From a virus (taxonomy: Duplodnaviria; Heunggongvirae; Uroviricota; Caudoviricetes), in IMG/VR virus record IMGVR_UViG_2540341028_000012: 15,429 bases of DNA; one strand, written 5' to 3'. A program made the translations under genes and the position numbers. The first letter of the stretch is position 1, and each line of letters starts with the position of its first letter. Below the pieces are notes generated by a model, which ran no database searches, had not been told where the DNA came from, and saw only the letters and a list, made by a program, of their open reading frames with translations. This document shows positions 3,374-3,585 of the stretch, one piece after another.

Positions 3374-3445
3374 TGGAGCACCTGTGTTGTTCTGAGGTGA
3401 GCATATCACCTCTGTTCAGGTGGCCAAATTCAGTGTGCCACTTCA

Positions 3446-3506
3446 GGAATCGAACCCGCATCATCAGCTTGGAAGGCTGAGGTAATAGCCATTATACGAT
3501 GCCCGC
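3446..3506 (-). tRNA. tRNA-Gly (anticodon UCC), 3'-truncated by IS911 insertion (non-functional)
   Basis: Reverse complement GCGGGCATCGTATAATGGCTATTACCTCAGCCTTCCAAGCTGATGATGCGGGTTCGATTCC: acceptor, D-arm, anticodon loop CTTCCAA, T-loop TTCGATT, then abuts IS911 end; 3' T-stem, acceptor strand and CCA missing. Confidence 0.7.
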
Positions 3507-3509
3507 ATA

Positions 3510-3585
3510 TGGTGCCGACTACCGGAATCGAACTGGTGACCTACTGATTACAAGTCAGTTGCTCTGCCTGCTGAGCTAAGTCGGC
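3510..3585 (-). tRNA. tRNA-Thr (anticodon UGU)
   Basis: Reverse complement GCCGACTTAGCTCAGCAGGCAGAGCAACTGACTTGTAATCAGTAGGTCACCAGTTCGATTCCGGTAGTCGGCACCA; cloverleaf foldable, anticodon loop CTTGTAA, encoded CCA; one T-stem mismatch. Confidence 0.75.

What the first reader, a model, noticed from the sequence alone, without database searches (positions are those of the whole stretch)
3440..3510. IS911 end sits inside a tRNA-Gly(UCC) gene, removing its 3' T-stem, acceptor strand and CCA
The tRNA is intact through the T-loop (...GCGGGTTCGATTCC) and then runs directly into the IS911 terminal repeat. There is no duplicated target and no remaining 3' portion on the other side of the IS, so the distal half of the locus was lost. 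This tRNA copy is dead.
Basis: seen in the sequence. Interest (0 to 1): 0.45.

Follow-up and report, generated by a model that had tools for sequence, protein, structure and literature searches.

The report
IS911-truncated prophage tRNA-Gly remnant
A spare, prophage-borne copy of the glycine tRNA gene glyT in Shigella flexneri has lost its last 14 bases at the end of an IS911 insertion sequence; this is ordinary IS-driven decay of a dead prophage, and the identical chromosomal glyT that essentially every E. coli carries should cover its function.

Summary
On the minus strand, window 3506->3446 holds the first 61 nt of a tRNA-Gly(UCC) gene. It is 100% identical to chromosomal glyT and to the intact fourth tRNA of a lambdoid prophage array (Q - Ile2 - Arg - Thr - Gly - holin/lysozyme) in EIEC-like E. 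coli. It stops after ...GGGTTCGATTCC and runs straight into the IS911 left inverted repeat (IS911 = 2198-3445). ARAGORN does not call it, and Rfam gives only a partial tRNA match (29.3 bits, model positions 10-63). The acceptor stem cannot form, so this copy is dead.

The window is from Shigella flexneri CDC 796-83. The identical junction is present in a closed chromosome (CP026866.1), so it is real and inherited. It is absent from 5,426 complete E. coli genomes.

The other IS911 flank differs between the two genomes: a molR-like gene here and an IS66-family gene there. Neither carries a target duplication or the missing 14 nt. In other Shigella genomes the same molR IS911 is a simple insertion with a GGC duplication. 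So the 3' part was separated by a later IS911-mediated rearrangement. Deletion, relocation and a draft-assembly chimera across the repeat could not be told apart.

This is an ordinary example of Shigella IS-driven genome decay, of low interest.

The parts
3446..3506 (-). 5' 61 nt of tRNA-Gly(UCC): acceptor 5' strand, D arm, anticodon arm, variable region, 5' T-stem, T-loop and the first 2 nt of the 3' T-stem. The last 14 nt are missing.
   Evidence: Sequence. 100% identical to the intact prophage tRNA-Gly and to chromosomal glyT. Partial Rfam tRNA hit of 29.3 bits, model positions 10-63. No ARAGORN call.
2198..3445 (-). IS911 (IS3 family), 1248 bp, with both inverted repeats. IRL is at 3445, abutting the tRNA; IRR is at 2198, abutting the molR-like fragment. 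orfA is 3373-3071. orfB carries a 1-nt deletion near 2413-2416 in this assembly.
   Evidence: Inverted repeats 2197-2224 / 3419-3446. 99.7% identity over the full length to annotated IS911. Differences from intact copies are listed. IS3-family transposase matches.
3510..3585 (-). tRNA-Thr(UGU), intact, 3 nt upstream of the Gly remnant
   Evidence: ARAGORN; Rfam 69.8 bits
3588..3664 (-). tRNA-Arg(UCU), intact
   Evidence: ARAGORN; Rfam 56.4 bits
3666..3742 (-). tRNA with CAU anticodon, annotated tRNA-Ile (lysidine type) in related genomes, intact
   Evidence: ARAGORN; Rfam 70.5 bits; PGAP annotation of the identical gene
3831..3852 (-). Hairpin CCCGC-TTTAT-GCGGG followed by TTTTTTT. It looks like an intrinsic terminator, lies between Q and the tRNA array, and sits where a late-region terminator would be expected.
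   Evidence: Read directly from the sequence. The consensus scan did not flag it, so this is unconfirmed.
3933..4488 (-). Q-type antiterminator gene (DUF1133 / PF06576), split by a 1-nt insertion at 4193 in this assembly
   Evidence: Alignment with the intact 184-aa genes of L001 and L002. Pfam calls on the two pieces. Named 'Phage antitermination protein [Shigella flexneri CDC 796-83]'.
4501..5764 (-). IS600 copy 2. It joins the Q' remnant to the end of tail gene J. Its flanks carry no target duplication.
   Evidence: The same Q-side junction is a simple insertion with a GGA duplication in CP026866.1. The same J-side junction is a simple insertion with a TTG duplication in L004.
1616..2197 (+). 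580-bp internal fragment of a chromosomal molR-like (DUF4132/WGR) gene; this is the IRR-side flank of IS911
   Evidence: 99.3% identical to the interior of the DUF4132 gene next to metG. Named a MolR-family fragment in many Shigella drafts.
353..1615 (-). IS600 copy 1 inside the molR-like gene, associated with a 985-bp deletion of that gene
   Evidence: the window flanks map to L011 3661-4013 and 4999-5580

Best explanation
The feature is the non-functional 5' remnant (61 of 75 nt) of a redundant, prophage-borne copy of glyT. It was the last gene of a four-tRNA array (Ile2-CAU, Arg-UCU, Thr-UGU, Gly-UCC) that lies between the Q antiterminator and the lysis genes of a lambdoid prophage.

Shown:
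- An IS911 left end sits after ...GATTCC in the T-arm.
- The junction is inherited. It is shared by S. flexneri CDC 796-83 (this window) and the closed chromosome CP026866.1.
- The prophage here is reduced to a 1,055-bp island (Q' plus tRNAs) between IS600 and IS911.
- The other flank of this IS911 is unrelated DNA and carries no target duplication.

Inferred:
- An IS911 first inserted into the tRNA T-arm, with an expected TCC duplication.
- Homologous recombination between that copy and other IS911 copies then exchanged the IRR-side flank. One candidate partner is the copy that sits in molR as a simple GGC-flanked insertion in related strains. The exchange deleted or relocated the 14-nt 3' end together with the lysis and morphogenesis genes.
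- The loss is expected to be neutral. The chromosomal glyT found in 5421 of 5426 E. coli genomes is identical to the remnant. From general knowledge, glyT is the only reader of GGA.
For: Truncation and identity.

IS911 identity and ends.

Ancestral layout, Q - 4 tRNAs - holin - RrrD lysozyme - Rz - terminase, in FDAARGOS_944, CFSAN029787 and VL7S7.

No target duplication here (GGC versus GGA). The same IS911 is a simple insertion in molR with a GGC/GGC duplication in L015, L016 and L017.

The identical tRNA-Gly'|IS911 junction lies within a 3,566-bp block that is 99.66% identical in closed chromosome CP026866.1. There the IRR side abuts an IS66-family gene, again without a duplication or a tRNA remainder.

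The junction is absent from all 5,426 complete E. coli genomes.

The fold of remnant plus IS sequence shows no cloverleaf (z = +0.15), whereas the intact gene folds as one (z = -2.64).

IS1, IS2, IS4, IS600 and IS911 have expanded in all Shigella species, creating pseudogenes and IS-associated rearrangements: PMC7373316, PMC8072062.
Against: The original simple insertion (tRNA 5' part - IS911 - TCC - tRNA 3' part) was not seen in any genome. The two-step history is therefore inferred, and a one-step transposase-mediated deletion or inversion would give the same junction.

The sequence differences between the window's IS911 and the molR copy of L016 lie on the IRR side (2413-2629). A simple crossover model would predict them on the IRL side, so the IS sequence itself gives no support for a hybrid origin.

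The molR-IS911-tRNA linkage rests on one draft assembly that shows signs of homopolymer errors: metG is split in two, and the window has five 1-nt indels that closed genomes lack.
Confidence: 0.85

Rival explanations
1. The molR linkage is a draft-assembly chimera. In the real CDC 796-83 genome the molR IS911 would be a simple GGC-flanked insertion. The tRNA-Gly'|IS911 junction would belong to a different IS911 copy, for example one abutting an IS66-family gene as in CP026866.1. The contig would have been joined wrongly through the 1.25-kb repeat, and likewise through IS600. The tRNA would still be truncated.
For: The window can be tiled from three arrangements seen separately in other genomes. 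Positions 1-3445 match L016, 2198-5762 match L019, and 4501-15429 match L004. The tiles overlap exactly in IS911 and IS600. The assembly also shows likely homopolymer errors: metG is split, and there are window-specific 1-nt indels.
Against: The same tiling is exactly what real IS x IS recombination produces, and that is frequent in Shigella (PMC8072062). The contig crosses at least five IS copies, which suggests mate-pair support. Nothing in the sequence marks a misjoin.
Confidence: 0.25
2. The junction arose in one step by a transposase-mediated intramolecular event. The IRL end of an IS911 already resident elsewhere attacked the tRNA T-arm on the same replicon. That would give an adjacent deletion or inversion without any earlier simple insertion in the tRNA.
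For: No genome with a simple IS911 insertion in this tRNA was found. No target duplication is seen at the junction in either genome that carries it.
Against: From general knowledge, IS911 transposes mainly by copy-out/paste-in through a circular intermediate, which gives simple insertions. The IRR-side partner differs between the two genomes that share the junction (molR versus IS66 family). At least one later exchange between IS911 copies is therefore needed anyway.
Confidence: 0.12
3. The truncated gene still gives a working or regulatory RNA. IS911 sequence could replace the lost 3' strand, or the product could act as a tRNA-derived fragment.
For: The IS sequence CCTGA would keep 4 of the 5 T-stem pairs (read from the sequence). 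The upstream array appears intact, with a promoter-like site at 3781-3752, so the remnant is probably transcribed.
Against: Only 2 of 7 acceptor pairs can form with IS sequence, and there is no CCA or discriminator base. The MFE fold is not a cloverleaf and is no more stable than shuffled sequence. ARAGORN rejects it. The copy in CP026866.1 has already acquired a D-loop substitution.
Confidence: 0.02

Closest known systems
IS-mediated pseudogenisation and IS x IS rearrangement in Shigella (expansion of IS1, IS2, IS4, IS600 and IS911; PMC7373316, PMC8072062)
   Same: An IS911 end interrupts a gene. The flanks lack target duplications. Three IS copies in 5.4 kb join DNA from a prophage late region, a prophage tail region and the metG-molR chromosomal region. 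The host is S. flexneri.
   Different: The interrupted gene is a tRNA gene rather than a protein-coding gene. PMC7373316 does not mention tRNA at all (0 occurrences). Only a redundant prophage copy is hit.
tRNA arrays downstream of Q in lambdoid and Stx-converting prophages
   Same: The position is the same: after the Q antiterminator (PF06576) and before the lysis genes. All four anticodons (CAU-Ile2, UCU, UGU, UCC) read A-ending codons (AUA, AGA, ACA, GGA). Partial matches to Stx2-converting and other E. coli phages are annotated tRNA-Ile/Arg or tRNA-Thr/Gly. Intact four-gene arrays occur in EIEC-like E. coli.
   Different: Here the array is cut in its last gene and everything downstream is gone. 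The gene names ileZ-argN-argO for phage 933W are recalled from memory; a literature search for them returned nothing.
Chromosomal glyT (tRNA-Gly2, UCC) of the thrU-tyrU-glyT-thrT-tufB operon
   Same: Identical over all 61 retained nt. The intact prophage allele is identical over all 75 nt.
   Different: The genomic context differs: a prophage array rather than the tufB operon. This copy lacks its 3' 14 nt.
tRNA genes as integration (att) sites of integrase-type islands and prophages
   Same: A mobile element abuts the 3' half of a tRNA gene.
   Different: Integrase elements rebuild the tRNA 3' end from a duplicated att core and leave the gene intact. Here the element is a DDE-transposase IS, no duplicate of the 3' end exists, and the gene is destroyed.

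Membership tests
Functional tRNA gene (Rfam RF00005 / cloverleaf) | 7-bp acceptor stem closing the cloverleaf, plus discriminator base and 3' CCA (encoded in E. coli tRNA genes) | tested here: not met
   The 3' strand is absent. The Rfam match covers model positions 10-63 only. ARAGORN makes no call. The fold shows no cloverleaf.
Functional tRNA gene (Rfam RF00005 / cloverleaf) | D arm, anticodon arm with anticodon UCC, and T-loop GTTCGATT | tested here: met
   61/61 identity to glyT and to the intact prophage tRNA-Gly
IS911 (IS3 family) | Terminal inverted repeats beginning TGAAGTGG, about 1.25 kb apart | tested here: met
   Arms at 2197-2224 and 3419-3446. The element is 1248 bp against 1249 bp in annotated copies, at 99.7% identity.
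IS911 (IS3 family) | orfA and orfB giving an OrfAB transposase by programmed -1 frameshift | tested here: inconclusive
   orfA is intact (3373-3071) and orfB matches the IS3 transposase model. A 1-nt deletion near 2413-2416 breaks orfB before the ...DNSPMERFF motif. The deletion is absent from the same copies in L016 and L019 and lies in a short homopolymer, so it may be a sequencing error.
IS911 (IS3 family) | 3-bp direct target duplication at a simple insertion | tested here: not met
   The flanks are GGC and GGA. The same IRR junction has a GGC/GGC duplication in L015 and L016. The copy in the window is therefore not a simple insertion.
Lambdoid prophage late-region tRNA array | Q-type antiterminator gene immediately upstream on the same strand | tested here: met
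   DUF1133/PF06576 gene at 4488-3933
Lambdoid prophage late-region tRNA array | Holin, endolysin and Rz lysis cassette downstream | tested here: not met
   Present in L001, L002 and L018. Replaced by IS911 and the molR-like fragment in the window.
tRNA-targeted integrase island (att site) | Tyrosine or serine integrase next to the tRNA, and a direct repeat of the tRNA 3' end at the far border | tested here: not met
   The abutting element is IS911. There is no copy of the 3' end in the window.

The most novel reading that the evidence does not exclude
The junction places IS911 orfA/orfAB in the sense orientation directly downstream of an apparently intact three-tRNA array. The array has its own promoter-like site (3781-3752), and no terminator-like site was found on the tRNA strand between it and orfA. 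Read-through from the tRNA array could then drive transposase expression from this copy, a form of tRNA-promoter capture, and so feed IS911 activity in this S. flexneri lineage. Loss of the RNase P substrate 3 nt after tRNA-Thr could also impair 3' maturation of that tRNA.
Probability: 0.05. Interest if true: 0.3.

Novelty: new member of a known kind. Interest (0 to 1): 0.1.

Why it matters
It matters little. It is one more documented breakpoint of IS-driven genome decay in Shigella, and the gene it hits is a tRNA gene. It costs the cell nothing we can point to, because the copy is redundant and sits in a prophage that is already dead.

It has two practical uses. The 32-nt junction GATGCGGGTTCGATTCC|TGAAGTGGCACACTG is a lineage marker: it is shared by at least two S. 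flexneri genomes and is absent from 5,426 complete E. coli genomes. The locus also shows how an IS without a target duplication marks a secondary rearrangement, and why draft contigs that cross several IS copies need caution.

Tried and rejected
Searches that found nothing:
- Exact-junction scans of the GTDB species representatives and of JGI metagenome contigs.
- A scan of the GTDB representatives for the predicted reciprocal junction, IS911-IRR + 0-8 nt + CGCTGCCCGCTCCA. These collections probably hold no Shigella genome apart from the E. coli representative, so the negatives carry little weight.
- Look-ups of the 36-aa ORF that spans the junction and of the 87-aa Q' piece.
- A literature search for ileZ/argN/argO.

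Searches that were uninformative:
- The 104-aa Q' piece is found only in the source assembly.
- The P0068 contigs (L013, L014) stop before the tRNA array. They reveal a different IS911 end inside Q at window-equivalent position 4374.
- The promoter/terminator consensus scan did not flag the hairpin plus T-run at 3852-3831 that is visible in the sequence.

Ideas considered and rejected:
- A chance resemblance to a tRNA: rejected by the 61/61 identity.
- An integrase att site: no integrase and no repeat of the 3' end.
- A hybrid functional tRNA using IS sequence: only 2 of 7 acceptor pairs can form.

Claim withdrawn: I first read the IS911 orfB deletion and the Q insertion at 4193 as real inactivating mutations. 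I withdrew the firm claim after the closed genomes L016 and L019 proved to lack them and metG proved to be split in the same assembly.

Not attempted: locating the molR distal fragment or the lysis genes elsewhere in the CDC 796-83 assembly. Look-up works only by exact protein and returns at most 10 places.

Full report
**1. The observation**

The tRNA genes of the window lie on the minus strand. ARAGORN calls three complete genes: a CAT-anticodon tRNA at 3742-3666, tRNA-Arg(TCT) at 3664-3588 and tRNA-Thr(TGT) at 3585-3510. Rfam RF00005 confirms them at 70.5, 56.4 and 69.8 bits.

Three bases after tRNA-Thr, from 3506 down to 3446, the minus strand reads GCGGGCATCGTATAATGGCTATTACCTCAGCCTTCCAAGCTGATGATGCGGGTTCGATTCC. 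From 3445 it reads TGAAGTGGCACACTGAATTTGGCCACC.... Rfam gives a local tRNA hit at 3497-3443, with 29.3 bits against a gathering score of 29, covering model positions 10-63 of 71. ARAGORN gives nothing there.

**2. What the 61 nt are**

They are 100% identical to a tRNA-Gly present, at a median of one place per genome, in 5421 of 5426 complete E. coli genomes. In a sampled genome that gene is glyT, in the thrU-tyrU-glyT-thrT-tufB operon.

They are also identical to the fourth gene of an intact four-tRNA array in E. coli FDAARGOS_944. That gene continues ...GATTCC-CGCTGCCCGCTCCA. What is missing in the window is therefore 14 nt: three of the five 3' T-stem bases, the seven-base 3' acceptor strand, the discriminator base and CCA.

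With IS sequence in their place, 4 of 5 T-stem pairs could still form, but only 2 of 7 acceptor pairs (read from the sequence). The 75-nt stretch of remnant plus IS does not fold as a cloverleaf and is no more stable than shuffled sequence (z = +0.15). The intact allele folds as a cloverleaf (z = -2.64). This copy cannot give a tRNA.

**3. What the element is**

Window 2198-3445 is 1248 bp, bounded by imperfect inverted repeats that begin TGAAGTGG. It is 99.7% identical over its full length to copies annotated 'IS3-like element IS911 family transposase, programmed frameshift'. orfA (3373-3071) and orfB match the IS3 transposase model.

Compared with an intact copy, it has three substitutions and a 1-nt deletion near 2413-2416. 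The deletion breaks orfB just before the ...DNSPMERFF motif. However, the deletion is absent from the corresponding copies in two closed chromosomes and lies in a short homopolymer. In the same assembly the essential gene metG is split in two. I therefore treat the broken transposase as possibly a sequencing error.

**4. The context**

The array belongs to a lambdoid prophage late region. In FDAARGOS_944, CFSAN029787 and VL7S7 the order is DUF1367 - DUF1364 - Q-type antiterminator (DUF1133) - tRNA-Ile - Arg - Thr - fourth tRNA - 0.3-0.7 kb - holin - RrrD lysozyme - Rz-type lysis protein - terminase. Partial matches occur in Stx2-converting and other E. coli phages.

In the window only 1,055 bp of this prophage remain (3446-4500). 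They hold the Q gene, split by a 1-nt insertion at 4193. They also hold a terminator-like hairpin plus T-run (3852-3831, read from the sequence), a promoter-like site (3781-3752) and the array. From 3782 to 3446 the sequence is identical to FDAARGOS_944.

This island lies between IS600 (4501-5764) and IS911. Beyond IS600 come the tail genes J, I, K, L, M and H of a lambdoid prophage. Beyond IS911 come 580 bp from the interior of a chromosomal molR-like (DUF4132/WGR) gene. Then follow a second IS600 (353-1615), with a 985-bp deletion of that gene, and the gene's 5' end next to metG.

**5. Provenance**

The window is 100% identical to contig AERO01000018.1 of GCA_000193935.2. The proteins of that contig are named Shigella flexneri CDC 796-83.

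**6. History of the junction**

None of the three IS copies in the window has a target duplication: tggc|IS911|ggaa, taa|IS600|atg and tcc|IS600|caa. Comparison with other genomes explains each one.

(a) The chimeric ORF across IS600-end / molR fragment / IS911-IRR is found in other Shigella assemblies. In L015 and in the closed chromosome CP026811.1 (L016), the same IS911 is a simple insertion in the molR-like gene with a perfect GGC/GGC duplication.

(b) The closed chromosome CP026866.1 (L019) carries a 3,566-bp block that is 99.66% identical to window 5762-2198. The block includes the exact tRNA-Gly'|IS911 junction and the exact IS600|Q' junction. There, IS600 is a simple insertion with a GGA duplication 13 bp upstream of Q. 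The IRR side of that IS911 abuts an IS66-family transposase gene, again with no TCC duplication and no tRNA remainder.

(c) In L004 the IS600 after J is a simple insertion with a TTG duplication, followed by lom.

From this I conclude that the tRNA-Gly'|IS911 junction is real and inherited by at least two strains. It is not in any of 5,426 complete E. coli genomes. The partner on the IRR side has been exchanged at least once.

The most economical history is an IS911 insertion into the T-arm, followed by homologous recombination among IS911 copies that removed or relocated the 3' end and the lysis and morphogenesis genes. The literature describes expansion of IS1, IS2, IS4, IS600 and IS911 in all Shigella species, and a high rate of rearrangement in Shigella genomes, with 103 of 114 reconstructed inversions mapping to Shigella branches (PMC7373316, PMC8072062).

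**7. What remains open**

(i) The ancestral simple insertion and the reciprocal junction were not found, but the collections searched hardly contain Shigella.

(ii) The window can be tiled from L016-like, L019-like and L004-like arrangements that overlap in IS911 and IS600. The molR-IS911-tRNA and J-IS600-Q linkages could therefore be real recombination or misjoins in a draft assembly. I give the latter about 0.25. In either case the tRNA is truncated.

(iii) Whether the distal part is deleted from the genome or inverted to another site could not be tested.

**8. Consequences**

The copy is redundant, because its sequence equals the chromosomal glyT that is present in essentially every E. coli genome. 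From general knowledge, glyT is the sole reader of GGA, so it must be retained. The prophage is already defunct, so the loss should be neutral.

In CP026866.1 the remnant has one D-loop substitution (window 3488). That is compatible with drift.

Two effects are possible but untested. tRNA-Thr, 3 nt upstream, loses the RNase P site that would normally trim its 3' trailer. Transcription of the array would also run in the sense direction into IS911 orfA.

**9. Verdict**

The kind of event is well known. This instance is a new member of that kind, and interest is low.

Noticed in passing
L002 6793-6864 (E. coli CFSAN029787) and L018 2298-2368 (E. coli VL7S7); not in the window: In several EIEC-like E. 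coli the fourth tRNA of the same prophage array is a glyT-derived gene. Its anticodon is TAC (Val) instead of TCC, position 38 is A-to-G, and the 3' end is altered (TGCCGCTCAAG instead of TGCCCGCTCCA; one C short, no encoded CCA). PGAP and ARAGORN both call it tRNA-Val. The identical allele sits in prophage backbones that are only about 87% identical in the Q region. It is either a spreading pseudogene or an anticodon-switched phage tRNA.
   Followed up: partly
window 4501-5764 and flanks; L004 13443-14706; L019 2724-3988: IS600 copy 2 joins the 3' end of tail gene J to the Q' remnant without a target duplication. The J-side junction is a simple TTG-flanked insertion before lom in L004. The Q-side junction is a simple GGA-flanked insertion in CP026866.1. 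The window copy is therefore a recombinant between two IS600 insertions, or an assembly misjoin. The last 8 nt of the 1149-aa J ORF, including its stop codon, come from the IS600 end.
   Followed up: partly
window 1294, 2413-2416, 3370, 3929, 4193; L003 19207-21239: Five single-base indels in 5.4 kb are absent from the corresponding sequence of closed genomes. The four whose context was inspected (1294, 2416, 3929, 4193) lie in short homopolymers. In the same contig the essential gene metG is split into two ORFs. This suggests homopolymer sequencing errors in the draft assembly, so the apparent frameshifts in Q, IS911 orfB and IS600 orfA may not be real.
   Followed up: partly
L013 1-12 and L014 1-13 (S. 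flexneri draft contigs), equivalent to window 4374: Other S. flexneri assemblies carry an independent IS911 end (…GACCACTTCA) inside the same Q gene, at a different position. The same prophage remnant has therefore been hit by IS911 more than once in different lineages. The Q fragment cluster P0068 has 143 members, on contigs of about 600 bp.
   Followed up: partly
window 141-352, 353-1615, 1616-2197: The chromosomal molR-like (WGR/DUF4132) gene next to metG is broken by IS600 with a 985-bp internal deletion, and again by IS911. The 580-bp fragment between the two IS copies appears as a stand-alone contig of about 570-580 bp named 'MolR family transcriptional regulator, partial' in many S. flexneri and S. 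boydii drafts. This double disruption is therefore widespread.
   Followed up: partly
window 9806-11159 (minus strand); L003 7954-8653: The tail gene L of the prophage remnant is called as two pieces (66 aa and 146 aa) in the source contig, and L004-L008 call no L gene in that interval. The tail module may therefore be decaying too, or this may be another homopolymer artefact.
   Followed up: no
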